Source of the DNA: an uncultured Clostridia bacterium
GTDB lineage: Bacteria > Bacillota > Clostridia > Christensenellales > Borkfalkiaceae
Length of the DNA stretch: 26,434 bases
Assembly: GCA_944369635.1 (NCBI GenBank)
Contig: CALVXL010000043.1
Location: 1-26,434, forward strand
Reading direction: 5' to 3'
Shown here: piece after piece, positions 1,421-21,478 of the stretch
Layout of the letters: each line of letters opens with the position of its first letter
Position numbering within the stretch: position 1 is the first letter of the stretch
Program-made: the position numbers and the translations under genes
The notes under the pieces: generated by a model
Databases searched by the model: none
Seen by the model: only the letters and a program-made list of their open reading frames with translations
Told to the model about the DNA's origin: nothing

Positions 1421-1449
1421 TTGTGTTTTTCGTGAGTGTGTGATATAAT
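1421..1449 (+). promoter_or_regulatory. SigmaA promoter of the integrase
   Basis: TTGTGT(1421)-17 bp-TATAAT(1444) with extended TGn, then RBS GGGAGG at 1466-1471. Confidence 0.7.
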
Positions 1450-1474
1450 TCTGCTATCACGAAACGGGAGGTAT

Positions 1475-2755
1475 ATGCAACAAAAGCAATTGACTGACCT
1501 GTTACAGTTTATTAAGAACACAAACAACGACCAAATCGATCTCGCAGCGATGATTCTCAAACTCGCTGCCGACTCCATCACTTTGGAAACGCTAAGGTCG
1601 TTGGCTGGTTCTGAAAAAGTTTTATCCGCTGTATCAGGCAAAAAGGAGAACGAAGTATCGGAAGAAGAAAAGACCGGCACACTATCTTTTACAAAAAAGG
1701 AGTTGGAATCTATGCCGAAATCTTTTCAAAAAACTTTTATTTATGACAACAGAATCGTAAAGTTCCGCTATTATAGGGGGCTTTTTCAGGCTCGTTACCG
1801 CAGAAATGGGTATAATATAGAAGTTGCATCCAAAGACTTCGATACGATGAAAAAGAAATTCATTGAGAAGTTGATAGGTCAGGCGGAGGTACAGGACATA
1901 CCCGTATCCGCCCCGCAGCGTCGGACTGCGAAGAATGTTCTTTTTGCGGAGTATGCCCAAGAATGGCTCAAGCTCAAAGAGCAGACGACTAAGCCTTCTA
2001 CATTTAAAGAATATTCTTGTATGTTTGCCGTCGATCTTCGACCGACTTTCGGGCATCTGTATCTTACGGAGATTAATCGACCGCTTGTGCAACAATACTT
2101 GTTTAAGTTTGTAGAGGCGGAGAAATACAGGACCGCGGAGAAACTAAAACTCATGCTGAACTGTATTTTCGATATGGCTGTGGAGGACTTCAATTTAGCT
2201 TCCCCGATGAAGAAGATCGTCTTGCCTTACCATGAGAGTAAGAAAGGTAGCGCGCTGAAGAAAGAAGAGGAAAAGAAGCTTGTGGAATATTGCCGTAACA
2301 GGAAAGACGATGTTGCTTCAGCCTTGCTGGTCTTGCTGTATTTCGGGCTTAGGCAAAGCGAATTATCGTCGTTAAAGATTATTGACGGCAACACGCTCGA
2401 ATGTGAAACGAGCAAAGAACGTATGGGCAGAAACGTTACTCTGCGATACATACCTTTTACGCCTATTTTTAAAAAGGTGCAAGACTTTGTCGATTTTGAA
2501 AAAGCCAGAACCGTAAACATTTACAAGTTGCGTTCCGCGTTTAAAAGACTTTTTCCCCAGCATCATCCGCACGAACTCAGATATACATTTATTACGCGGT
2601 GCAAGGAATGTGGCGTAAACCCTGAACTCGTTATGCTTTGGGACGGACACTCGGGGGATAAAGACGTTAAAACATCCGCTGTGGACAGAGGATATACCGA
2701 CTATTCAAAGGAATATATTCTATCCGAAGCGGAAAAAGTGAACTACGATTTGTAA
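1475..2755 (+). CDS. int: Tyrosine recombinase/integrase, 426 aa (start moved from 1436 to ATG 1475)
   Basis: Catalytic motifs YFGLRQSEL (R), HELR (HxxR), LWDGH and RGY (Tyr). It has a SAM-like core-binding region (FAEYAQEWL...TTKPSTFKEY). RBS GGGAGG precedes ATG 1475. Confidence 0.93.
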   Translation: MQQKQLTDLLQFIKNTNNDQIDLAAMILKLAADSITLETLRSLAGSEKVLSAVSGKKENEVSEEEKTGTLSFTKKELESMPKSFQKTFIYDNRIVKFRYYRGLFQARYRRNGYNIEVASKDFDTMKKKFIEKLIGQAEVQDIPVSAPQRRTAKNVLFAEYAQEWLKLKEQTTKPSTFKEYSCMFAVDLRPTFGHLYLTEINRPLVQQYLFKFVEAEKYRTAEKLKLMLNCIFDMAVEDFNLASPMKKIVLPYHESKKGSALKKEEEKKLVEYCRNRKDDVASALLVLLYFGLRQSELSSLKIIDGNTLECETSKERMGRNVTLRYIPFTPIFKKVQDFVDFEKARTVNIYKLRSAFKRLFPQHHPHELRYTFITRCKECGVNPELVMLWDGHSGDKDVKTSAVDRGYTDYSKEYILSEAEKVNYDL

Positions 2756-10972: not shown

Positions 10973-13900
10973 TCAAACGGTATACGGCAACTTGTAACCG
11001 AAATCGGTATTGATCCCGCTTACCGAAACGGCGCGGTCGCCTGCGGTAATGCCGTTATATTCCGCCGCGTCGATCAGACGGAAACTATCCGCCTTGAACA
11101 CGCCCCAGCTTGCGTCGGTGTTGTCCGCAAGTTCGATATAATATTCTTTATCGACGGACAACGAAGACAGATCGAGCAGGTGATTGTCGAAGTCGCCGTT
11201 CTGCTTTTCGCTGAGGTTATCCCTTCTCACGAAGCGGAGCACCTCGATGTTGGTGCCGACTTCCTTCACCGAAACGAACATCTGCTTATCGTATCTGAGC
11301 GCACCCGCCCAATCGAAACGGATATACATCTTATCGGAAGTAATGCGGAACGCGGAACTGCGCAAAACGCCCGTCGCCCCGTCGCCGCCGACGTTATTGC
11401 TGATGATATAGCCGCTTTCCGTCTTGTAAATTCCCGACGGATCGCTCCACCCCGTAAGGTCGGTATCGAAATTGCCGTTGACGATCGTATCGCCGCCCGC
11501 GCCGACACCCTGAATTTCGGGGAGAATGTTTTCGGCAAGATATCCTCCGTCAATATTCGGCGCGGTTTCGTGATAGGTAAAGAAGCTGTCCGCAGAAAGC
11601 ACGCACCACATATTGGACGCGGTGTCGTTCAGCGTGATGTAATAGCTCGTTCCCAAAGCGCCGACCGAGGTCAGATCGAAATAATATTGGAACATATACG
11701 CTTCCGCATTTTCCGTACCGCTCTTGCCCGTGTCGCCGAAATTCTGATTGCCGAAGCGCGCGACTTCCTTATCGGTTGCCGTCTCTTTTACGGAAACGTA
11801 CGCGAAGTCGGAATTTTTACCGCCGCCAAGCTTGAAGCTGATCCAGCCGCTGCCGCCCAGCACGAAATCGGAAGAGCGCAGAATGCCCATGCGTTCCTGT
11901 CCGCTGTCCTTGCTGATGTTGCCGCCGTAAATGCCGAGGTTGTAATTTCCGTCCCTGTTGTAATCGAAATTCTGGTCAAAATAGCCGCCGTTCACCACGC
12001 GATCGTCCGTCCATGCCATCATTCCCTCTTCGTTCTTCCAGATAGAGTACGCGTTCCACCCGTAAAGGTTACCAGTTTCAAAACCGCCGTTTAAGATTTC
12101 CGACGCGGCGTTCGCATACGTAACGGTAAAGGAAACGCTGCCATCCTCCGTCGAAAGAATAAAGGTATACTCAGTTTGCCCGAAACGGTAAATTTCATTC
12201 AGATAGCTGCCCGAAATGACGAGTTTGTCGCCGTCCGCGCCGTTTTCTATTTTCCATTTGTCCGCGCTCACTTCCTCCATTCCGTAAGACAACTTTGCCT
12301 GCGTTGCTCCGGCGAGGTCTAAATCGCTGATAATGTCATTTACACGGGCGATGTCATAATCGCCCGTGTTCGCTACCGTAGGTTGCGAACCGCTTTCCTC
12401 GATTTGAACGGTGAACGGAATTTCCGTTCCGTCGGACATTTTTGCGACGAACCCCAGCGAAGTTTGTTCTCCTGCCGCTTCGTCGACGTATTCACCGCTG
12501 ACGGTGAGTATGTTTTGTTCGAAATTCCAGTCGGCTGCATCGACTTCGTTGCCGCCCTGATACAGGGAAACAAACGATTTATCGTACATGAAAAACTCCA
12601 CTTTCACGCCGACGGAAGAATTGCGGAGATATGTTATTTCTTCGCTCTTCAGTTCGGGCGCGCGGCTGTCGGTCACGACGATTTTCAGCTCCAGCGCTCC
12701 GTAGCCGTTATCTACGGTAACGACGTTTTCCCCGTAAGAAAAACTTTCCGCAGCCGCCGCTTTAACGGTGAATACGCCCGTTTCGCCGTCGAAAGTATAA
12801 AGCGCGCTATCGAGCGAACAATTTACGACTTCCAGCGGATATCCGCTTAAATTAAACGTTACGTCCTGCGGCGCGTTTTTGTCAATTGCCGCCGCGTTTT
12901 CGGCGACAAGTTTGTCCACGACGCTGATCGTCACGGTGTTCCTGCCCCGCGCGGTATAAACAGTCAGTACGGTTTTTCCGTATCCGAGAGTGGAAAGATA
13001 ACTTGCTTTAACGGTAAAATATCTGTAATTGCCGCTCTTTTCGCCGAGGGTGTAGTCTTTGCCCGCTTCCAGCGCCGCGCCGCCGTTTTCGACGGCGACG
13101 ATCTCCGCGTCGCTTACGCCCTCCGCATTGGTGATCGTATAGACGATGTCTGCGGTTTCCCCGCTTCCGCTTGCTTTATAATATACTTTGTCGTCCTTTT
13201 CCCCGATTTCGGGCATACGCTGTTTGTATACGACGTCCATCGTGACGGCGTCGCTCGTAAATCCGTTGTTATCCGTCGCGGTATAAGTAAAGTAAACCGT
13301 ACCGAACCAGCCCGCCGCTCTGTCGAAATCAAAAGACTTATTCCCGTCGTTCAGCGTGATAACGCCGAAATTCCCACTCACGCTCTTTCCGTCTTCGGAA
13401 ACGACGGGTTCCGTATAGGAAGTTTCGGCATCCTGCACCTCTTCGATGTAGTCATAACTCTTCGCCCCGACGAAACGGAAAGACGTCAAAACGCATCCTT
13501 CGTCCGCGGAAACGCGCAGCAGTTCGTTGGAAATGACCTCTTCGGTAAACTTGGTGACGTTCTGACTGCCCTCGTTCGCCGTCGGGCGGTTCGCGCCGTA
13601 AACTTCAAAGTCGGCCGAACCGTTCGCGGTCACGACGGTAAGCGTCGCTTTTCCCGCGCTTAGCGTCGCCAGGTATTCTTTCGCTATCGTCAGTCTTTCG
13701 CCGCTTACACGGTAATTTTCAGAAGCGATCTCGTTCTCGCCGTTTTTCAGCGTGAAACTTTCCCCGAAGGCTTTCACGGTGTAATACAAATCGGCGCCCG
13801 TCCCCGCGAGATATACGTTCGTTTCCCCCGCGAGATATATTAACGGCGCATTTTTGTGCTCCGCATAGCTCTTCACCGATAGCGTTTTCGTCGATGCATC

Positions 13901-14683
13901 GTAGGCAAAGGAATACATGCCCTCCGCCGTCGCCGCTATTCCGTTTTCCGTAACCGTTGCGCTGTCAACCGCCGCCGCGTCGTATACTGCAGCCTTTTCT
14001 CCCGTCGTCGGGTTACACACGGTCACTTCGTCCCCTGCCGAAAGGTAAATCCCGTTCGCTTCATATATCCCGTTTGCTTCCGTCAGGCGATACGTCTGAT
14101 CGGCAGGATTGCTCAGATCCTTCCCTCCGATCGTTCCCGCAAGATAGTAATTATCGTAATCGAACGTATACTTTACCACAAAGTCCTTGTTTTCCGTCAA
14201 CTCCGAAGGATTTTGCAACGCCGCTTCCGCAACCTGTTTCACCGAGCGCGTCTGCGCGGGCGTATACGTCGTCACGCCGTCCTTTTCCATATAGAATACG
14301 GCGGTCAGAGCGGTGGAATACTGCGATACCGGTATACCCGCGATGACGACGTTGAACTCGTATTCCCCGTTCTTCAGCACGCCGTCAAGCCCTTCGAAAT
14401 GCACCGCTTCGGGATAGTTCCCCTTTTCCAGCGGCGTGTCTTCTGAAAGCATCTTTTCGGGGATGACCAGCGCCCCGATATTAACTCCCTCCGCCTTTTC
14501 TTCTTCCGCTATCGTCGCGGTAAAGCGTATGCCGTCGGGAGATTTCGTGCGAACGGACGCCCCGTTTTTCATCGCAAAGGAACTTTCTTCCGCCGCAAAT
14601 GCCGCGCTCATGCCGAACGCCGCCATCGCAAAACAAAATACCGTCGCCAAAACGATTACGATTCGTCTCTTCATCGCTTTCAT
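10973..14683 (-). CDS. Large secreted, apparently non-catalytic modular protein (N-terminal unknown domain, X2-like and cadherin/Ig-like modules, two C-terminal CBM38-like modules), ~1236 aa; the start could also be 14689
   Basis: Signal peptide ending AFA-A. X2-like repeats (NYRVSGERLTIAKEYLATL; YFTVKASYLSTLGYGKTVLTV; LVISGSYL). Cadherin-like FTYTATDNNG. NGGFETG and NGNFDTDLTGW modules. ATG 14683 overlaps the stop of the upstream peptide (ATGA). Confidence 0.78.
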   Translation of the reverse strand: MKAMKRRIVIVLATVFCFAMAAFGMSAAFAAEESSFAMKNGASVRTKSPDGIRFTATIAEEEKAEGVNIGALVIPEKMLSEDTPLEKGNYPEAVHFEGLDGVLKNGEYEFNVVIAGIPVSQYSTALTAVFYMEKDGVTTYTPAQTRSVKQVAEAALQNPSELTENKDFVVKYTFDYDNYYLAGTIGGKDLSNPADQTYRLTEANGIYEANGIYLSAGDEVTVCNPTTGEKAAVYDAAAVDSATVTENGIAATAEGMYSFAYDASTKTLSVKSYAEHKNAPLIYLAGETNVYLAGTGADLYYTVKAFGESFTLKNGENEIASENYRVSGERLTIAKEYLATLSAGKATLTVVTANGSADFEVYGANRPTANEGSQNVTKFTEEVISNELLRVSADEGCVLTSFRFVGAKSYDYIEEVQDAETSYTEPVVSEDGKSVSGNFGVITLNDGNKSFDFDRAAGWFGTVYFTYTATDNNGFTSDAVTMDVVYKQRMPEIGEKDDKVYYKASGSGETADIVYTITNAEGVSDAEIVAVENGGAALEAGKDYTLGEKSGNYRYFTVKASYLSTLGYGKTVLTVYTARGRNTVTISVVDKLVAENAAAIDKNAPQDVTFNLSGYPLEVVNCSLDSALYTFDGETGVFTVKAAAAESFSYGENVVTVDNGYGALELKIVVTDSRAPELKSEEITYLRNSSVGVKVEFFMYDKSFVSLYQGGNEVDAADWNFEQNILTVSGEYVDEAAGEQTSLGFVAKMSDGTEIPFTVQIEESGSQPTVANTGDYDIARVNDIISDLDLAGATQAKLSYGMEEVSADKWKIENGADGDKLVISGSYLNEIYRFGQTEYTFILSTEDGSVSFTVTYANAASEILNGGFETGNLYGWNAYSIWKNEEGMMAWTDDRVVNGGYFDQNFDYNRDGNYNLGIYGGNISKDSGQERMGILRSSDFVLGGSGWISFKLGGGKNSDFAYVSVKETATDKEVARFGNQNFGDTGKSGTENAEAYMFQYYFDLTSVGALGTSYYITLNDTASNMWCVLSADSFFTYHETAPNIDGGYLAENILPEIQGVGAGGDTIVNGNFDTDLTGWSDPSGIYKTESGYIISNNVGGDGATGVLRSSAFRITSDKMYIRFDWAGALRYDKQMFVSVKEVGTNIEVLRFVRRDNLSEKQNGDFDNHLLDLSSLSVDKEYYIELADNTDASWGVFKADSFRLIDAAEYNGITAGDRAVSVSGINTDFGYKLPYTV

Positions 14684-14802
14684 TTCCATGCTCCCTCCCA
14701 CGGCCAGTTTTCCACGTAATCGTCGTCGACCAGACTCGACAAAATCACGTCGCTTTCCACCGAAACCTTTTTAAGTTCGGGAGATTCATACTTCCTTCTC
14801 AT
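14680..14802 (-). CDS. Unannotated 40-aa peptide MRRKYESPELKKVSVESDVILSSLVDDDYVENWPWEGAWK
   Basis: Below the ORF-track cutoff. Strong RBS AAAGGAGGG lies 6 nt before ATG 14802. It is on the operon strand, fills the intergenic gap, and its TGA overlaps the next gene's ATG (ATGA). Confidence 0.8.
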   Translation of the reverse strand: MRRKYESPELKKVSVESDVILSSLVDDDYVENWPWEGAWK

Positions 14803-14870
14803 CTTTTTCCCTCCTTTATCAATATAATTTTATAGCAATACCTCCGAAAAAACTTTTGGTCTTTTTCCTT

Positions 14871-17792
14871 TTATTTTCCCGGCTCCGTCAGCGTAACCGC
14901 GCCGATATAAATACCCGTGCCGACCGCAAACGCGGAACCGTCCGTATTGGTCACCGTAACAAAACTGATTTCCCACTTGTTGTTGTCGTACGTTGCCCAC
15001 GCGCTGGCTTCAACCCATTTTACACAGACTTTCGCATAGCCTTCGGAATTTGCCGCGATGGTAGTGGTATACGTTCCCGACGGGCGATCGCACGTCACCG
15101 TAATTTCCTTATCCGTGGGATTTTTGATCCACATATACGCTTCGAATTCTCCCGAAGCGTTTTCGGGGATGTTCTGCCCTTTTACGAAACGCATCTGGAA
15201 AGATGTCGTGCTCTCCGCCGCGGACTGGATATAAAAACTTCCCTCCGCCGAAGCGTTGTTTTCGTCCTTTGCTCCCTTTACATAGGAATAATCATACGCC
15301 GCCCTGTGTCCGCCGTGCGGGTTGAAATGGAATCCGCCCTCGCTGCTTTCAAACGCAAAGACGCTGTCGCTGCCGTACACACCGCCCGTAATCGTGCCGA
15401 TGTAGAACGGTCCGCCGTCTTTGCTGCTGTCGTCGGCCAGGATAAATTCGATGACGTGATCGGGATTTTGCATCCAGTCATCCTGCCAGATCTCCGTCCA
15501 CATCGGCATGGAGCAGTCCATCGTAATATACTGCCATTGTCCAGGACTTACCGTCTGGTTATGGTTGTTTTTCTGCAAAAGATTGATCACCGATTCCTTG
15601 CTTCCGGCGTTATAAAACCAGAAACCTATGTAATCGAACTGCGACAAATCGTTGATCGCCGAAGAAATGACGAACGTAGGCATATTGTTGGGCGTCCCGA
15701 CGATTTTAACGGCGTTTGCGAGTTCTTCCGCGGACGGCTTTTCATAACCTTCCGCACCTTCGGGCAAAACGGCGTTGGGAACCAACTCCAGCGTGACGCG
15801 CTTTCCGTAGCTTCTAATCTGGTGCATACCCTCTTCGTCGTCGAGATAAGCGATGACGTTTTCACGCGCCTCGATATCCGATACGTACAGCGCGATTTTC
15901 TGTACGTTCGAATTGCCTGTTTCGCCCTTGGCTTCCACTACGTAATACCAATCTCCTGCGACATCGGGCGTTAAAACGCCGTCGGTGATTGCAACGCTCG
16001 AACCGTCGGGACGGAGCGCCGACCAGGAAATATATTCTTCGCCGAGCGCTTCGCCGCCCAAAGTGATTTCACAATCGGGAATGACGATCGGCTCGCCCGC
16101 CACCGCAAACCTGGGCGTGTTCTTCACCGTTATTACGGGTGAAGAGTCGCCGATTACCGCTCCGATGTAGAATCCGTCGCCGGCGGCAAAGTTGCTGTCA
16201 TCCGTATAATAAACATCCAAAAAGAACATCTGCCAGGGATTGTTATCGAAACGCATCCACGCATTGTCCTTATCGCTTCTGATCACCATAGGCACATACG
16301 CGGAGGACTTAGGCGCAACCGTTCCCGTTATTTTAACGCTTTCCGACGTTTCGGTCACAAATTTCAGCGTTTTCGTTTCGTGCGGGTTATAGACCCACGC
16401 TTTGACAAAATAATCTTTCACGAGGGAAGCGTCCGCCGTAACGTTCTTAGCCTTGATGAAACGCGCCTGAATGCTGGACGTGTTCTTGATTGCAAAGAAA
16501 TGCGTGCTGCCGACGCCGCCATCTTCTTTAACTGCCGTCGTATAGGAGTAACCGCTGACGTCGCGGTGCGCAACGTGGGTGTTCATATGCATTCTGCCTT
16601 CGGGCAAATCGAACGCAAAGACCGCATCGGAAGAATAATGATATCCGGAAATGCCGCCGATATAAAGCGCCCCGTCGAAAGAAGTCTGCTGAATATCGTC
16701 GTACAAGCTGAGTTCGACAACATGATCGAAGGGTTGCATTGCGTTCCACGCTTCGTTATACTGGTCCGCGCCGCAATAAAGCGCCATGAACTGCCACTGT
16801 TTGGGCTGAATGGTGTTCTGATTGAGGTTTGCAAAGCTGATATTCAGCGAAACGACGAGCGATGAATCGTTATATGCCCAGAACCCGATATAATCGTACC
16901 CGGACAAATCGTAGATCGTGGGGCTGATCAGTATGGAAGCACGCACGCCCTCCGCAGGATCGACTTTCAGCGCGCCTTTCAGCTCTTCGGCGGAGGGTTT
17001 GGGGAATTCCTCGCTGCCCTCAGGTAAATTCTCGTTCGTGACATAAGACAAATCTTCGTCTCTGTTTGCGAAAGGACGCACCTGTTGCATACCCCATTCT
17101 TCGTCGAGATAAGCGATTTTATCTTCCACCGGATCTTCGTCGATGACGGTGAGGTCGTATTGTTTTTCCACCGTGTTGCCGCCGAGGTCGGTCACTTTGA
17201 TCTTATAGGTCCATTTGCCGACCGTATCCGCGGTAAACCAGCCGTCTTCCGCCGTAGCTTCGGACCCGTCGGGACGAAGAATCTTTAAATCTATGTTTTC
17301 TTCGGGAATATCGTTATTATCCTCGATCGTGAATTCCGGCACGGGAACTTTTTGGTTCAGAAGCGCGAAATTCGCGATCATTTTATCGCCTACGGTAGGC
17401 GCTTCACTGTCCGAACACTGGAAGGCTTTTACCGCGTCCGCCACGCCTTCTTTCGCGCAGGTATACGTTACTTTATAATTGCCGGGAATATTCGGCACCA
17501 AAAACATGCCGCCCATTACGTTGGCATTGCCGCCGTTCGGGTCCGCAACGCTTTTGACGGATACTTTGTATTCATTGCCCGTCATCTTTTCTCCTTTCTT
17601 ATCGACGACATCGGGAATGGCAATCGTATACGTCTTGCCGAGCTCCGCCATAGGCAGACTCAGCGTTTCCACGTCGATCTTGTAATCGGAATCGGGAGTC
17701 GGATTTTTCTCCCCTCTGTTACAAGCGACAAATACCGCCGAAAGTACGAATAACATCATGACTACGGCTACTGCTGACAATAACTTTTTCAT
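14871..17792 (-). CDS. Lipoprotein with an internal ~421-aa tandem duplication (Ig-like plus two CBM-like jelly-roll modules per copy), 973 aa
   Basis: RBS GGAGG and lipobox FVA-C. Paired motifs: LRPDGS at aa172/593, IAYLDEEWGMQQVR vs IAYLDDEEGMHQIR, KPSAEEL twice, DLSGYDYIGFWAYN vs DLSQFDYIGFWFYN, and FDNNPWQ vs YDNNKWE. Confidence 0.8.
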   Translation of the reverse strand: MKKLLSAVAVVMMLFVLSAVFVACNRGEKNPTPDSDYKIDVETLSLPMAELGKTYTIAIPDVVDKKGEKMTGNEYKVSVKSVADPNGGNANVMGGMFLVPNIPGNYKVTYTCAKEGVADAVKAFQCSDSEAPTVGDKMIANFALLNQKVPVPEFTIEDNNDIPEENIDLKILRPDGSEATAEDGWFTADTVGKWTYKIKVTDLGGNTVEKQYDLTVIDEDPVEDKIAYLDEEWGMQQVRPFANRDEDLSYVTNENLPEGSEEFPKPSAEELKGALKVDPAEGVRASILISPTIYDLSGYDYIGFWAYNDSSLVVSLNISFANLNQNTIQPKQWQFMALYCGADQYNEAWNAMQPFDHVVELSLYDDIQQTSFDGALYIGGISGYHYSSDAVFAFDLPEGRMHMNTHVAHRDVSGYSYTTAVKEDGGVGSTHFFAIKNTSSIQARFIKAKNVTADASLVKDYFVKAWVYNPHETKTLKFVTETSESVKITGTVAPKSSAYVPMVIRSDKDNAWMRFDNNPWQMFFLDVYYTDDSNFAAGDGFYIGAVIGDSSPVITVKNTPRFAVAGEPIVIPDCEITLGGEALGEEYISWSALRPDGSSVAITDGVLTPDVAGDWYYVVEAKGETGNSNVQKIALYVSDIEARENVIAYLDDEEGMHQIRSYGKRVTLELVPNAVLPEGAEGYEKPSAEELANAVKIVGTPNNMPTFVISSAINDLSQFDYIGFWFYNAGSKESVINLLQKNNHNQTVSPGQWQYITMDCSMPMWTEIWQDDWMQNPDHVIEFILADDSSKDGGPFYIGTITGGVYGSDSVFAFESSEGGFHFNPHGGHRAAYDYSYVKGAKDENNASAEGSFYIQSAAESTTSFQMRFVKGQNIPENASGEFEAYMWIKNPTDKEITVTCDRPSGTYTTTIAANSEGYAKVCVKWVEASAWATYDNNKWEISFVTVTNTDGSAFAVGTGIYIGAVTLTEPGK

Positions 17793-19520: not shown

Positions 19521-20387
19521 TTACAAAACGCCTTCTTTTTGCAGCGCGATTTTGATTTTCGCTTCATCCGCCGCCGTCAGTTTTCTGAACGGTCTGCGGG
19601 CGTGTCCGCACGGAATATCCATCAATGACAAAACGTATTTTATGCTTTCGATCAGGCCGCATTCGCACACACAACGCACGAGCTCGTTCACGCCGTGCTG
19701 TATTTTCAGGGCTTCTTTCATGCGATTGCCGTCGAAAAGCTCTTTGATTTTGATAAAATTTTTCACCATGAAGTTGAACGTGGAACCGATTCCGCCGTCC
19801 GCACCCGCCGCCAGCGCGGAAAGAAAATCTTCGTCCTTTCCCGAATAGACGATCTTCCCCGTATGCGAACGGATCTGTTCGAGAACGAAATAGTCGGTAT
19901 CGGTGAATTTTATGTATTCCACGCGATCGTCGGCAAGAAGCGTTTCCAGCTGCGAAACCGTAAAACCGTTGTTCGTAAGGTCGGGAATGTTATAGATCAT
20001 CATCGGCAATTTTGTCTTTCGCGCAAGGTCGTGGTAATACGCCGCGATTTCGTCAAACGAAAAGCGAAAGTAAAACGGCGGTACGCTGGAAACGGCGTTC
20101 GCGCCCGCTTTTTCCGCATGCGCGGCGAGCGTTTCCGCAGGGATTGAGCCGACCGTTCCGATATTTGCAATGACGAATGCCCCGTCCGCCGCCTTCACCA
20201 CGGTTTCGAGCGCGGCCATCCGCTCTTCCTCGCTCATCAAAAAACATTCCGCCGACGATCCGCCCGCGTAAATCCCGTCCGCACCGCTGTCCAGCACAAA
20301 GCGGACAAGCTTTTTCAAAGCTTCGTGATCCACGCTCTCGTCTTTTTTGAATGGCGTTACAACGGGCACTAAAATCTTGTTGTTCAT
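19521..20387 (-). CDS. nanA: N-acetylneuraminate lyase-like aldolase (DHDPS/NAL family), 288 aa (start moved to ATG 20387)
   Basis: VVTPF, GIYAGGSSAE, PPFYF, IYNIP, Schiff-base IKFTD and GADGGIGSTFN (a NanA-type signature). RBS GGAGGA and ATGA overlap with the upstream gene. Confidence 0.75.
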   Translation of the reverse strand: MNNKILVPVVTPFKKDESVDHEALKKLVRFVLDSGADGIYAGGSSAECFLMSEEERMAALETVVKAADGAFVIANIGTVGSIPAETLAAHAEKAGANAVSSVPPFYFRFSFDEIAAYYHDLARKTKLPMMIYNIPDLTNNGFTVSQLETLLADDRVEYIKFTDTDYFVLEQIRSHTGKIVYSGKDEDFLSALAAGADGGIGSTFNFMVKNFIKIKELFDGNRMKEALKIQHGVNELVRCVCECGLIESIKYVLSLMDIPCGHARRPFRKLTAADEAKIKIALQKEGVL

Positions 20388-21478
20388 AATTCCTCCTCGA
20401 TATTCCATTTCGTAAACCAAATCGCCTGTCCGCCCGTTTTTTCAGACCGCTGATAATAAACGGTCAAAATCTCTCCGTCGCACAGTTCCGCGCTCGCGGG
20501 GTATCCGAGATCCCATCCGTCCCCGTCCGAACGCAGAATGATTTCTTTGCTCCAACTCTTTCCGCCGTCTTCGCTGATGCGGGCGCGCTGTCCGAACGGC
20601 GCGATCCTGCGCCCGTACGTCAGCACGATTTTTCCGCTTTTTGTCAATAGCAGGTGCGGCGGCGAACCGTGAAATTCTTCTTCCCCCACGGGAATGCGCT
20701 CCGGCACGGAAAAACTTTTTCCGCCGTCTTCCGAATAACACTGATAGATGGAAAACAGCCCTTCTTTCTGCGCACGGATATGTACCAGTATTCTGCCGTC
20801 CGCAAGTTCCAGCGCATGCGGTTCGCAAAACAGCACGCCGTCTTCCTTTTCTTTCTTTGGCAAAGGGATCCAAACCGGATCGGAAAAGGAAACGCAATCC
20901 CCCGTCGAAATGCAGCCGATCCTGTTTTCCTCGTCGCATTCCGCCCCGGTAACGTCCTCATGGTAAAAATTCCGCCCCACGTAAAGCAGTTTTCCGCCGC
21001 GCGTTTGTGTGAACCCGTGCGGCGACGTTACGGGTAATTTCCCCCAATGCTGCAAATTGCAGTCGCCGTCGAATACCGCGTAAAGCGATCCGAAGTATTT
21101 TCCTTCGTCGGCGTCGGATACCGTGGCGAGATATTCGTCGATCAGCTTTCTTTCGGAAGGCGGATACTCCCATTTTTCCTCGCATTTTTTCTGAAACAGT
21201 CGGGTATTGTTGAACGTGGTCAGCACAAACCCGCCGCGAAACGGCGTGACGCCCGCGTCGCGATCGTCCAAAGGCGTGTCGAATAAGACAAAGGGTTTGC
21301 TCCAGCTTTTTCCGTCGTCTTTTGAAATACTTGCGGCAACTTTTCCGAACGGACACACATGTTTCATTCTGAAACCTGAGCTGACCGCGATCAGCCGTCC
21401 GTCACGCAATCTGGCGATGCTCGGCCACATGAAGTTCTTTTTTCTGCCTCTGCCGGACATCACTATTCCGTGTTCCAT
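20384..21478 (-). CDS. Cytoplasmic BNR/Asp-box beta-propeller, sialidase-like (GH33-related) protein, 364 aa
   Basis: Asp-boxes SKDDGKSWS, SEDGGKSFS and SEDGGKSWS. Also FCEP..EL, HIR and LGYP. No signal peptide, and no RIP motif (MWPS instead). Confidence 0.75.
   Translation of the reverse strand: MEHGIVMSGRGRKKNFMWPSIARLRDGRLIAVSSGFRMKHVCPFGKVAASISKDDGKSWSKPFVLFDTPLDDRDAGVTPFRGGFVLTTFNNTRLFQKKCEEKWEYPPSERKLIDEYLATVSDADEGKYFGSLYAVFDGDCNLQHWGKLPVTSPHGFTQTRGGKLLYVGRNFYHEDVTGAECDEENRIGCISTGDCVSFSDPVWIPLPKKEKEDGVLFCEPHALELADGRILVHIRAQKEGLFSIYQCYSEDGGKSFSVPERIPVGEEEFHGSPPHLLLTKSGKIVLTYGRRIAPFGQRARISEDGGKSWSKEIILRSDGDGWDLGYPASAELCDGEILTVYYQRSEKTGGQAIWFTKWNIEEEL

What the first reader, a model, noticed from the sequence alone, without database searches (positions are those of the whole stretch)
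14680..14802. Hidden 40-aa peptide with a RiPP-leader-like YxxPxL motif, translationally coupled to the giant surface protein
MRRKYESPELKKVSVESDVILSS-LVDDDYVENWPWEGAWK is missed by the ORF track, yet it has a strong RBS and an ATGA overlap with the next gene. The N-half (basic start, YxxPxL, an alternating VSV strand, DVILSS) resembles RRE-binding leaders of lasso peptides. The C-half is acidic with three Trp. The window has no lasso cyclase, RRE, peptidase or radical-SAM gene and the peptide has no signal sequence, so an ordinary RiPP cluster does not explain it. My recollection is that similar YxxP...D(V/I)IxxS micro-ORFs recur beside surface-protein genes in gut anaerobes without a known function. 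Hypotheses: a beta-strand-donating chaperone or export partner for the downstream protein's N-terminal domain, a precursor matured in trans, or a translational-coupling device.
Basis: partly seen in the sequence, partly recalled or inferred. Interest (0 to 1): 0.82.

Follow-up and report, generated by a model that had tools for sequence, protein, structure and literature searches.

The report
Orphan phosphopeptide precursor before surface-protein gene
The 40-codon frame is a real, conserved gene that most likely encodes the raw peptide for a recently described kinase/chaperone/peptidase/exporter pathway found elsewhere in the same genome, and its fixed place in front of secreted proteins sharing one unnamed N-terminal module gives a testable lead to what these peptides do.

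Summary
The ORF lies at 14802..14680 (-), with an AAGGAGGG ribosome-binding site 7 nt upstream and an ATGA overlap with the downstream 1236-aa secreted protein.

It is not a chance frame. A profile built only from other genomes finds exactly four such frames among 30,843 in this chicken-gut Clostridia MAG. Within its bacterial family, 73 of 201 genomes carry about 165 copies, all in 36-110-aa frames. Y5, P8, D18 and S23 are invariant.

The window has no maturase, but the genome does. It holds an HprK-fold kinase plus a PqqD RRE (contig C53), a SipW-like peptidase plus an ABC exporter (C6), and an NTP_transf_5 gene (C73). These match LppK/B/S/D/N of the linear polyphosphorylated peptides (LPP; Popov 2026). 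Of the 73 genomes with the micro-ORF, 68 have the kinase. In one genus the micro-ORF heads the kinase-RRE-peptidase operon.

The best reading is therefore an LPP-type precursor matured in trans. This scan has already reached that reading for the same family on other genomes.

Added here: the downstream partner is usually a secreted protein that begins with one unnamed beta-sandwich ("GASVR..GIRF"), and the peptides placed there carry Trp-rich cores. No modification or expression of the peptide was shown.

The parts
14809..14816 (-). Shine-Dalgarno site AAGGAGGG of the micro-ORF, 7 nt before its ATG
   Evidence: Read directly from the sequence. Equivalent sites (AAAGGAGG and AAAGGAGAG) precede the copies on C165 and in G005.
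14680..14802 (-). Micro-ORF of 40 codons plus the TGA stop. It is the putative LppA-like precursor peptide.
   Evidence: Searches show the ORF. The family profile gives hits. A leave-own-out HMM scores it at E 2e-9. Y5, P8, D18 and S23 are invariant in 27 homologues.
14743..14802 (-). Putative leader, residues 1-20 (MRRKYESPELKKVSVESDVI). The YxxP RRE-binding motif has Y5 at 14790-14788 and P8 at 14781-14779, and D18 lies at 14751-14749. The boundary is inferred by analogy with LppA.
   Evidence: This half is conserved across the family. The Tyr-to-Ser spacing is 18, as in the published LPP consensus YxxPxVLxHQxIxFETxxS (PMC13381572). Cleavage was not shown.
14683..14742 (-). Putative core, residues 21-40 (LSSLVDDDYVENWPWEGAWK). 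S23 (14736-14734) would be core Ser3, the position that is phosphorylated in LppA. The tail is acidic and Trp-rich.
   Evidence: S23 is invariant. Tails across the family are 26% D/E, 5% K/R and 15% aromatic. Trp-type cores track the downstream N-domain. The modification is inferred, not shown.
14691..14699 (-). SD GGGAGGGAG of the downstream gene. It is embedded in micro-ORF codons W-E-G-A, 7 nt before ATG 14683.
   Evidence: Read from the sequence. It is conserved in the G005 copy.
14680..14683 (-). ATGA overlap: the micro-ORF stop (14682-14680) overlaps the start codon of the downstream gene (14683-14681).
   Evidence: The same ATGA overlap is seen in a 38%-identical homologue (L006), and gaps of 0-14 nt are seen in others.
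10973..14683 (-). Downstream gene for a 1236-aa secreted protein. It has a type I signal peptide (about 14591-14683) and CBM_X2 modules, but no LPxTG motif and no C-terminal membrane anchor.
   Evidence: ORF. Pfam CBM_X2 hit at 8e-19. Regex and hydropathy scan.
14084..14599 (-). Unnamed N-terminal beta-sandwich module ('GASVR..GIRF') of the downstream protein. This is the recurrent neighbour of the micro-ORF family.
   Evidence: The local HMM finds it in only 5 ORFs of this genome, and 3 of those sit directly behind micro-ORFs. It occurs in 69 of 201 genomes of the family. AF2 models it as a beta-sandwich. Fold matches to CBM56, CBM21 and GNBP3 are weak. AFDB places the same module at the N-termini of diverse secreted enzymes. 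It has no Pfam family.
14803..14870 (-). 68-nt spacer between the upstream 973-aa lipoprotein gene (14871-17792) and the micro-ORF. The consensus scan finds no promoter-like or terminator-like site on this strand.
   Evidence: consensus scan only.

Best explanation
The micro-ORF is a genuine gene for a ribosomally made precursor peptide of the LPP (linear polyphosphorylated peptide) type. Its maturation enzymes are encoded elsewhere in the genome.

Proposed mechanism:
1. The peptide is translated from the operon mRNA immediately ahead of, and coupled to, the secreted 1236-aa protein.
2. Its N-half (YxxP...DVI) is bound by the discrete PqqD-type RRE (contig C53:1184-1447).
3. The HprK-fold kinase that overlaps the RRE gene (C53:468-1184) phosphorylates the invariant Ser23, which corresponds to core Ser3.
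4. The RRE presents the leader to a small SipW-like Ser/His peptidase (C6:2557-2138), which cuts about three residues before that Ser.
5. The acidic, Trp-rich 20-mer leaves the cell through the ABC exporter whose gene overlaps the peptidase gene (C6:2138-483). A PF14907 nucleotidyltransferase (C73) may decorate it further.

What is shown:
- The gene is real and conserved.
- All five machinery genes exist in this genome.
- They co-occur with the micro-ORFs across genomes.
- In some genera they sit in one operon headed by a micro-ORF of the same family.

What is inferred by analogy with LppA/K/B/S/D/N: RRE binding, phosphorylation, the cleavage site and export.

The role of the product is unknown. 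Its wiring to one class of secreted proteins suggests a job at the cell surface together with them.
For: (1) The gene is real.
- It has a strong SD and the frame is conserved. Homologues of 33-58 aa keep Y5, P8, D18 and S23 invariant.
- A leave-own-out HMM finds only the 4 copies in 30,843 frames.
- About 165 matches in 73 of 201 genomes all lie in 36-110-aa frames.

(2) The architecture is that of a leader plus core.
- The N-half is conserved and the C-half is variable and acidic.
- The Tyr-to-Ser spacing is 18 in 18 of 29 peptides and 19 in 9 of 29. It is 18 in the LPP consensus (PMC13381572).

(3) The machinery is present in this genome.
- The PqqD RRE scores E 9e-18, above the Pfam cut-off. 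Its best NCBIfam hits are lasso PqqD chaperones, and its best PDB matches are 9x90_B and TbiB1.
- The neighbouring 239-aa protein has a SGTGKST P-loop and weak HprK-related NCBIfam hits. Its AF2 model has pLDDT 92, and all 50 listed PDB matches are HprK/P or PEPCK.
- The 140-aa peptidase gives sub-threshold hits to TIGR02228 and SipW. Its Ser23-His62 spacing is 39, the same as LppS S29-H68.
- The MsbA-like exporter gene overlaps the peptidase gene.
- PF14907 scores E 8e-47.

(4) The parts are linked across genomes.
- In other genera, K-B-S(-D/-N) are adjacent.
- In genus g20 a micro-ORF of the same family sits 80-117 nt upstream of K-B-S.

(5) The parts co-occur.
- 68 of 73 micro-ORF-positive genomes are kinase-positive, against 92 of 201 overall. 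The odds ratio is 59 and the naive Fisher p is 1e-26.
- Inside the split genera g15 and g13, all 5 and all 11 micro-ORF-positive genomes are kinase-positive.
- The peptidase and PF14907 show the same genus pattern, even where they are unlinked from the kinase.

(6) The kinase-RRE pair here has no precursor gene next to it. It therefore needs distal substrates.
Against: - No experiment or read data show that the peptide is made, bound, phosphorylated, cleaved or exported. RNA contigs cover only the downstream gene.
- The kinase and peptidase score below every curated family cut-off. Their assignment rests on fold, motifs and synteny.
- The RRE is no closer in sequence to the chain that is probably LppB (9x8z_B, E 0.8) than to lasso B1 proteins. 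Clade membership is untested.
- The leader differs from the LPP consensus after YxxPxL. It has no HQ, and it reads DVI where LPP has FET.
- Five micro-ORF-positive genomes lack a detectable kinase, and 24 kinase-positive genomes lack a detectable micro-ORF.
- The co-occurrence counts are not corrected for shared ancestry.
- The MAG is 76% complete.
Confidence: 0.72

Rival explanations
1. The ORF is a cis-acting coupling or leader ORF. It exists only to load ribosomes onto, or to regulate translation of, the downstream secreted-protein gene. The peptide itself would have no function.
For: - The stop and start overlap as ATGA.
- The downstream SD is embedded in the micro-ORF.
- Many homologues show a similar overlap or a gap of 0-14 nt.
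- No expression or product data exist.
Against: - Four residues are invariant at the protein level across homologues of 30-40% identity, and the spacing motif is conserved.
- Copies occur with no downstream gene (C99), or only trailing a gene (L020, L024, L026, L035), or heading the kinase operon (L101, L102).
- The micro-ORFs co-occur strongly with K/B/S/N genes that are unlinked to them.
- A coupling role can coexist with the precursor role.
Confidence: 0.1
2. The peptide is an unmodified intracellular partner of the downstream protein's N-terminal beta-sandwich, acting as a chaperone, strand donor or export escort.
For: - The micro-ORF is strongly adjacent to genes whose products begin with that module: 3 of 4 copies here, 13 of 26 loci chosen by micro-ORF, and 8 of 14 independent loci chosen by domain.
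- Trp-type cores track the module.
- Translation is coupled.
Against: - The downstream protein has an ordinary Sec signal peptide, and its module folds as a complete sandwich in the AF2 model.
- 10 of 26 micro-ORFs have no such neighbour in view.
- This reading does not explain the leader-type YxxP motif, the invariant Ser, or the genome-level link to the RRE, kinase, peptidase and exporter.
- No multimer model could be run.
Confidence: 0.08
3. The peptide is a lasso-peptide precursor whose cyclase and B2 peptidase lie in the unassembled quarter of the genome.
For: - The leader has a YxxPxL motif.
- The RRE's best family hits are lasso PqqD chaperones.
- The MAG is only 76% complete.
Against: - No PF13471 (B2) match reaches the cut-off in any of 8 genomes of the genus, two of which are 94% complete.
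- Asn-synthase hits are not near the RRE.
- The peptide has no Thr at all, so it lacks the penultimate-Thr leader signature.
- The conserved operon partner is a Ser/His SPase-like peptidase, not B2.
Confidence: 0.02

Closest known systems
Linear polyphosphorylated peptides (LPP), lppA-K-B-S-D-N of Paenibacillus alginolyticus and other Bacillota (Popov et al., Nat Commun 2026, PMC13381572)
   Same: - The precursor is short, with an N-terminal YxxP leader, a conserved Ser 18 residues after the Tyr and a hypervariable C-terminus.
- The RRE is a discrete PqqD protein.
- The kinase has the HprK fold.
- The leader peptidase is small and SipW/archaeal-type, with the same Ser-His spacing.
- There is an MsbA-like exporter and a PF14907 nucleotidyltransferase.
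- There is no cyclase.
   Different: - The precursor genes are dispersed (4 here) and wired into operons for secreted glycan-degrading or surface proteins, instead of sitting in the cluster.
- The machinery is split over at least 3 loci in this genus.
- The leader reads DV(I/L)xxS instead of HQxIxFETxxS.
- The kinase and peptidase are too divergent to reach curated cut-offs.
- The host is a small-genome gut Clostridia lineage, not Bacilli.
- The neighbourhood is not a capsule locus.
- Nothing has been shown biochemically.
Paeninodin-type phosphorylated lasso peptides (A, B1, B2, C, HprK-like kinase, nucleotidyltransferase, ABC exporter)
   Same: Both use an RRE-recognised [Y/W]xxP leader, an HprK-like Ser kinase, a PF14907 transferase and an ABC exporter.
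   Different: - No macrolactam synthetase or B2 cysteine peptidase was found.
- The leader has no penultimate Thr.
- The motif is Tyr-type, not the Trp-type of paeninodins.
Translationally coupled upstream micro-ORFs (ATGA-overlapped gene pairs)
   Same: The stop and start overlap, and the downstream SD lies inside the upstream frame.
   Different: The peptide sequence is conserved as a protein family, with its own trans-acting gene set. Many members have no coupled downstream gene.

Membership tests
LPP (linear polyphosphorylated peptide) RiPP system | Precursor with an N-terminal YxxP RRE-binding motif, a conserved Ser about 18 residues after the Tyr, and a variable C-terminus | tested here: met
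   Y5, P8 and S23 are invariant in 27 homologues. The spacing is 18 or 19 in 27 of 29 peptides, against 18 in the published consensus. The intervening residues differ from the consensus.
LPP (linear polyphosphorylated peptide) RiPP system | Discrete PqqD-type RRE (LppB) | tested here: met
   C53:1184-1447 scores Pfam PqqD 64.8 bits against a cut-off of 23.4. Whether it falls in the LppB clade was not tested, and the match to 9x8z_B is weak.
LPP (linear polyphosphorylated peptide) RiPP system | HprK-like kinase (LppK) next to the RRE | tested here: met
   The C53:468-1184 gene overlaps the RRE gene. Its AF2 model has pLDDT 92, and its top PDB hits are HprK/P and PEPCK. It has a SGTGKST P-loop. 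Its NCBIfam HprK-related hits are only sub-threshold.
LPP (linear polyphosphorylated peptide) RiPP system | SipW/archaeal-type signal-peptidase-like leader peptidase (LppS) with a Ser/His/Asp triad | tested here: inconclusive
   C6:2557-2138 scores TIGR02228 at E 0.003, below the cut-off, and a relative hits SipW at 1e-4. It has an NSMWP Ser23 and an LHRV His62, the same 39-residue spacing as LppS S29-H68. It is adjacent to K-B in other genera and has the same genus distribution. No fold model was made.
LPP (linear polyphosphorylated peptide) RiPP system | MsbA-like ABC exporter (LppD) | tested here: met
   C6:2138-483 encodes a 552-aa protein with ABC_membrane plus ABC_tran domains. The gene overlaps the peptidase gene.
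LPP (linear polyphosphorylated peptide) RiPP system | Uncharacterised nucleotidyltransferase (LppN, PF14907) | tested here: met
   C73:13596-14282 scores 159 bits, above the cut-off. The family occurs in 92 of 201 genomes with the kinase's genus pattern, and it lies next to K-B-S in several genomes.
LPP (linear polyphosphorylated peptide) RiPP system | Precursor gene located inside the biosynthetic cluster | tested here: not met
   The window holds none of the machinery, and K-B on C53 has no adjacent precursor. The feature is met only in genus g20 relatives.
LPP (linear polyphosphorylated peptide) RiPP system | Multiple phosphorylation of core Ser3 and RRE-dependent leader cleavage | not testable with these tools
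   This needs mass spectrometry or reconstitution.
Lasso peptides | Asn-synthetase-like macrolactam cyclase and B2 transglutaminase-like peptidase | tested here: not met
   PF13471 finds nothing above the cut-off in 8 genomes of the genus. The PF00733 hits are not near the RRE. The own genome is 76% complete.
Lasso peptides | Leader with penultimate Thr before the core | tested here: not met
   The 40-aa peptide contains no Thr (sequence).

The most novel reading that the evidence does not exclude
The mature, exported (phospho)peptide may be the extracellular partner of the unnamed N-terminal beta-sandwich carried by the protein translated right behind it. It could be, for example, a cell-wall-linked anchor or ligand that retains otherwise anchorless secreted enzymes on the Gram-positive surface.

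This would give LPP-type peptides their first biological role and would define a new surface-display mechanism.

Support so far is circumstantial:
- The module is the recurrent neighbour of the micro-ORF.
- The module sits at the N-terminus of many unrelated secreted enzymes.
- The 1236-aa protein has no known anchor.
- The module is largely confined to kinase-positive genomes (61 of 69).
- Trp-type cores go with the module (23 of 25, against 2 of 15 elsewhere).
Probability: 0.15. Interest if true: 0.85.

Novelty: new variant of a known kind. Interest (0 to 1): 0.6.

Why it matters
LPP-type peptides were described only in 2026, and their function is stated to be unknown (PMC13381572, Discussion).

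Here the same toolkit serves precursor genes scattered through the genome. The kinase family alone has more than 5,000 protein clusters, all annotated as hypothetical. The precursors are translationally coupled to secreted glycan-foraging proteins that share one uncharacterised N-terminal module.

This turns an orphan natural-product class into a concrete hypothesis about surface biology in gut Clostridia. The peptide and the module are named, so direct binding, localisation and knockout tests are possible.

It also warns that cluster-based RiPP mining misses most precursors of this family.

Tried and rejected
- Single-sequence searches with the 40-mer found only its own cluster and one 78%-identical cluster (word-indexed search; full HMMER over 1.8 billion representatives). 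The query is too short, and profiles were needed.
- Pfam and NCBIfam have no model for the peptide or for the N-domain. Rfam finds no RNA family at 14300-15200.
- A PDB profile search with the peptide alignment gave only a chance hit.
- dN/dS between the three closest copies is uninformative. There are 2-13 differences, and non-synonymous changes are at least as many as synonymous ones.
- RNA runs (chicken-gut metatranscriptomes) cover pieces of the neighbouring genes but not the micro-ORF.
- PF27840, the precomputed Pfam label of the kinase family, is not in the local library, so its name could not be read.
- Literature searches found no paper on dispersed LPP-like precursors beside surface proteins.
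- Chance ORF, RNA element and lasso precursor were all considered and rejected, for the reasons given under the rival explanations.
- No AlphaFold-Multimer run was possible for peptide with RRE or peptide with N-domain.
Full report
**Observation**

On the minus strand, an ATG at 14802 opens a 40-codon frame that ends with TGA at 14682-14680.
- An AAGGAGGG site lies 7 nt upstream of the ATG.
- The stop overlaps, as ATGA, the ATG at 14683 of a 1236-aa protein that has a type I signal peptide.
- That gene's own SD (GGGAGGGAG, 14699-14691) lies inside the micro-ORF at the right distance for this ATG.
- The peptide has three Trp. Its N-half has charge +1 and its C-half -4, and it has no hydrophobic segment.
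- The window is a mannoside-utilisation operon: BNR sialidase-like, DHDPS-family aldolase, solute-binding lipoprotein, 973-aa lipoprotein, micro-ORF, 1236-aa CBM_X2 protein, GH125, GH130, GLUG protein. It holds no RRE, kinase, peptidase, cyclase or radical-SAM gene.
- No Rfam family matches the region.

**Is it a gene?**

Single-sequence searches found only near-identical copies. The own genome is a 1.42-Mb, 76%-complete MAG, and public runs holding the sequence are mostly chicken-gut metagenomes. It holds a second copy at 95% identity on C165. Relatives hold diverged copies.

A profile of 27 peptides keeps Y5, P8, D18 and S23 invariant. At E<=0.01 it finds about 165 matches in 73 of 201 genomes of the bacterial family. 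Every match lies in an open frame of 36-110 aa.

An HMM built without this genome's peptides, and without those of its nearest relative, picks exactly four frames out of 30,843 here:
- C165:212-334
- the window copy
- C99:4430-4555
- C30:12690-12812

All four are 40-41 aa and begin MKK/MRR-x-Y-x-x-P.

Close copies differ too little for a dN/dS argument. The case for coding therefore rests on family-wide conservation of frame, length, start, SD and motif.

**What it resembles**

Notes from earlier follow-ups of this scan pointed to the linear polyphosphorylated peptides. I read the paper (PMC13381572). Its main points are:
- LPP clusters encode LppA (leader YxxPxVLxHQxIxFETxxS), an HprK-like kinase LppK, an RRE LppB, a SipW-like peptidase LppS (S29/H68/D93), an MsbA-like exporter LppD and a nucleotidyltransferase LppN.
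- The leader is cut after T-1.
- Core Ser3 receives several phosphates.
- The function is unknown.

In the family studied here, the Tyr-to-Ser distance is 18 in 18 of 29 peptides and 19 in 9. In the LPP consensus it is 18. By analogy, the leader would end at I20 and S23 would be core Ser3.

**Is the machinery present?** I tested this in the own genome.
- Kinase and RRE. Contig C53 carries a PqqD RRE (64.8 bits). Its gene overlaps that of a 239-aa protein. That protein has an invariant SGTGKST P-loop and weak HprK-related NCBIfam hits. Its AF2 model has pLDDT 92, and all 50 best PDB matches are HPr kinase/phosphatase or PEP carboxykinase. The RRE's closest solved relatives are lasso-type B1 proteins, 9x90_B and TbiB1.
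- Peptidase and exporter. In other genera of the family, K and B are followed by a 150-165-aa peptidase and an ABC exporter. The own genome has that peptidase on C6 at 39% identity. It hits archaeal-type signal peptidase I below the cut-off, and its Ser23-His62 spacing equals that of LppS. Its gene overlaps that of an MsbA-like exporter.
- Nucleotidyltransferase. PF14907 is present on C73.
- Lasso enzymes. No B2 peptidase reaches the cut-off in any of 8 genomes of the genus.

**Linkage and co-occurrence**

Counts over the 201 genomes of the family:

| Feature | Genomes |
|---|---|
| Kinase | 92 |
| Peptidase | 90 |
| PF14907 | 92 |
| Micro-ORF | 73 |

The first three show almost the same genus pattern, even in genera where they are unlinked.

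Of the 73 micro-ORF-positive genomes, 68 are kinase-positive. Of the 109 kinase-negative genomes, 5 carry a micro-ORF. The odds ratio is 59. The Fisher p is naive, because related genomes are not independent.

Within the split genera g15 and g13, all 5 and all 11 micro-ORF-positive genomes are kinase-positive.

In genus g20, a micro-ORF of the same family (MKKSYEKAELELIIFEEKDIITMS...) sits directly upstream of K-B-S. This is the canonical cluster layout.

In the own genome, K-B has no local precursor.

**The neighbour**

Three of the four copies here lie directly before genes whose products begin, right after the signal peptide, with a shared 'GASVR..GIRF' module. A local HMM finds that module in only five ORFs of the genome.

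Across the family, the module occurs about 290 times in 69 genomes, and 61 of those genomes are kinase-positive.
- In loci chosen by the micro-ORF, 13 of 26 have the module in the next gene and 3 have it at the end of the previous gene.
- In loci chosen by the module and not used to build its profile, 8 of 14 have a micro-ORF directly upstream.

The module has no Pfam family. AF2 models it as a beta-sandwich with weak likeness to CBM56, CBM21 and GNBP3. AFDB places it at the N-terminus of varied secreted enzymes. The 1236-aa protein has no LPxTG motif and no C-terminal anchor.

The cores fall into two types:
- 23 of 25 micro-ORFs directly before the module contain Trp.
- Only 2 of 15 others contain Trp. 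These carry D-F-G or DDFF motifs instead.

This could reflect co-inheritance of a micro-ORF plus N-domain cassette, since the C43 and C165 copies are near-identical. It could also reflect a specific partnership between core and module.

**Conclusion**

The finding is real. It is best read as an orphan LPP-type precursor that is matured in trans and co-expressed with a secreted protein.
- It works like LPP.
- Membership is supported for six of seven testable features. The peptidase is only inconclusive, and cluster co-localisation is not met.
- The chemistry is untested.
- Expression of the peptide is not shown. An RNA contig covers only 14281-14482 of the downstream gene.

The scan had already reached the LPP reading for this family on other genomes. 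New here are the split but co-inherited machinery, the defined N-terminal module as recurrent partner, and the Trp-type cores that go with it.

Noticed in passing
G000 contig C165:1-1834 (L002), compared with window 14680-14870: There is a second locus with a 95%-identical micro-ORF and the same downstream N-terminus. It is preceded by a different gene, a 442-aa lipoprotein at a 12-nt gap. Contigs of DNA run X1 show both junctions diverging at window position 14810, so both arrangements coexist in one sample. They could be paralogues or strain variants.
   Followed up: partly
window 14691-14699 (-): The SD of the downstream gene is encoded by micro-ORF codons W-E-G-A. The last residues of the peptide are therefore under a double constraint, from both the peptide sequence and the ribosome-binding site. 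The stretch is conserved in G005.
   Followed up: partly
L013 (G000:C53), L055-L058, L061: In genera g1 and g8, the kinase-RRE pair is always followed by a DUF1846 (UPF0371) gene and preceded by a divergent ApbE gene. In genus g1 it is further followed by a PNP_UDP_1-like gene, a 425-aa unknown, DUF6320 and a second MsbA-like exporter. It is unknown whether any of these belong to the pathway.
   Followed up: no
G020:C39:30820-32005: In a genome where the kinase query finds nothing, a micro-ORF lies directly upstream of the PF14907 nucleotidyltransferase gene, and a peptidase homologue lies elsewhere. This may be a kinase-less or kinase-divergent variant.
   Followed up: no
G138 (L031/L071) and G175, G028, G115: These genomes carry micro-ORFs, and G138 also carries four N-domain genes, but none has a detectable kinase or peptidase. 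They are exceptions to the co-occurrence. They are 79-94% complete.
   Followed up: no
(kinase homologues): The 239-aa kinase family has 5,141 clusters at E<=1e-10 in public data. Nearly all are 'hypothetical protein' from Clostridia MAGs, and they carry a precomputed Pfam label PF27840 that is not in the local Pfam copy.
   Followed up: partly
window 1436-2752 (+): A tyrosine-integrase gene (Phage_int_SAM_3 / Phage_integrase) lies beyond the end of the glycan operon, next to a DJ-1/PfpI gene.
   Followed up: no
window 19524-21478 (-): The operon is headed by a BNR-repeat sialidase-like gene and a DHDPS/NAL-family aldolase gene, ahead of mannoside enzymes (GH125, GH130). No ABC permease genes follow the solute-binding lipoprotein gene within the operon.
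   Followed up: no
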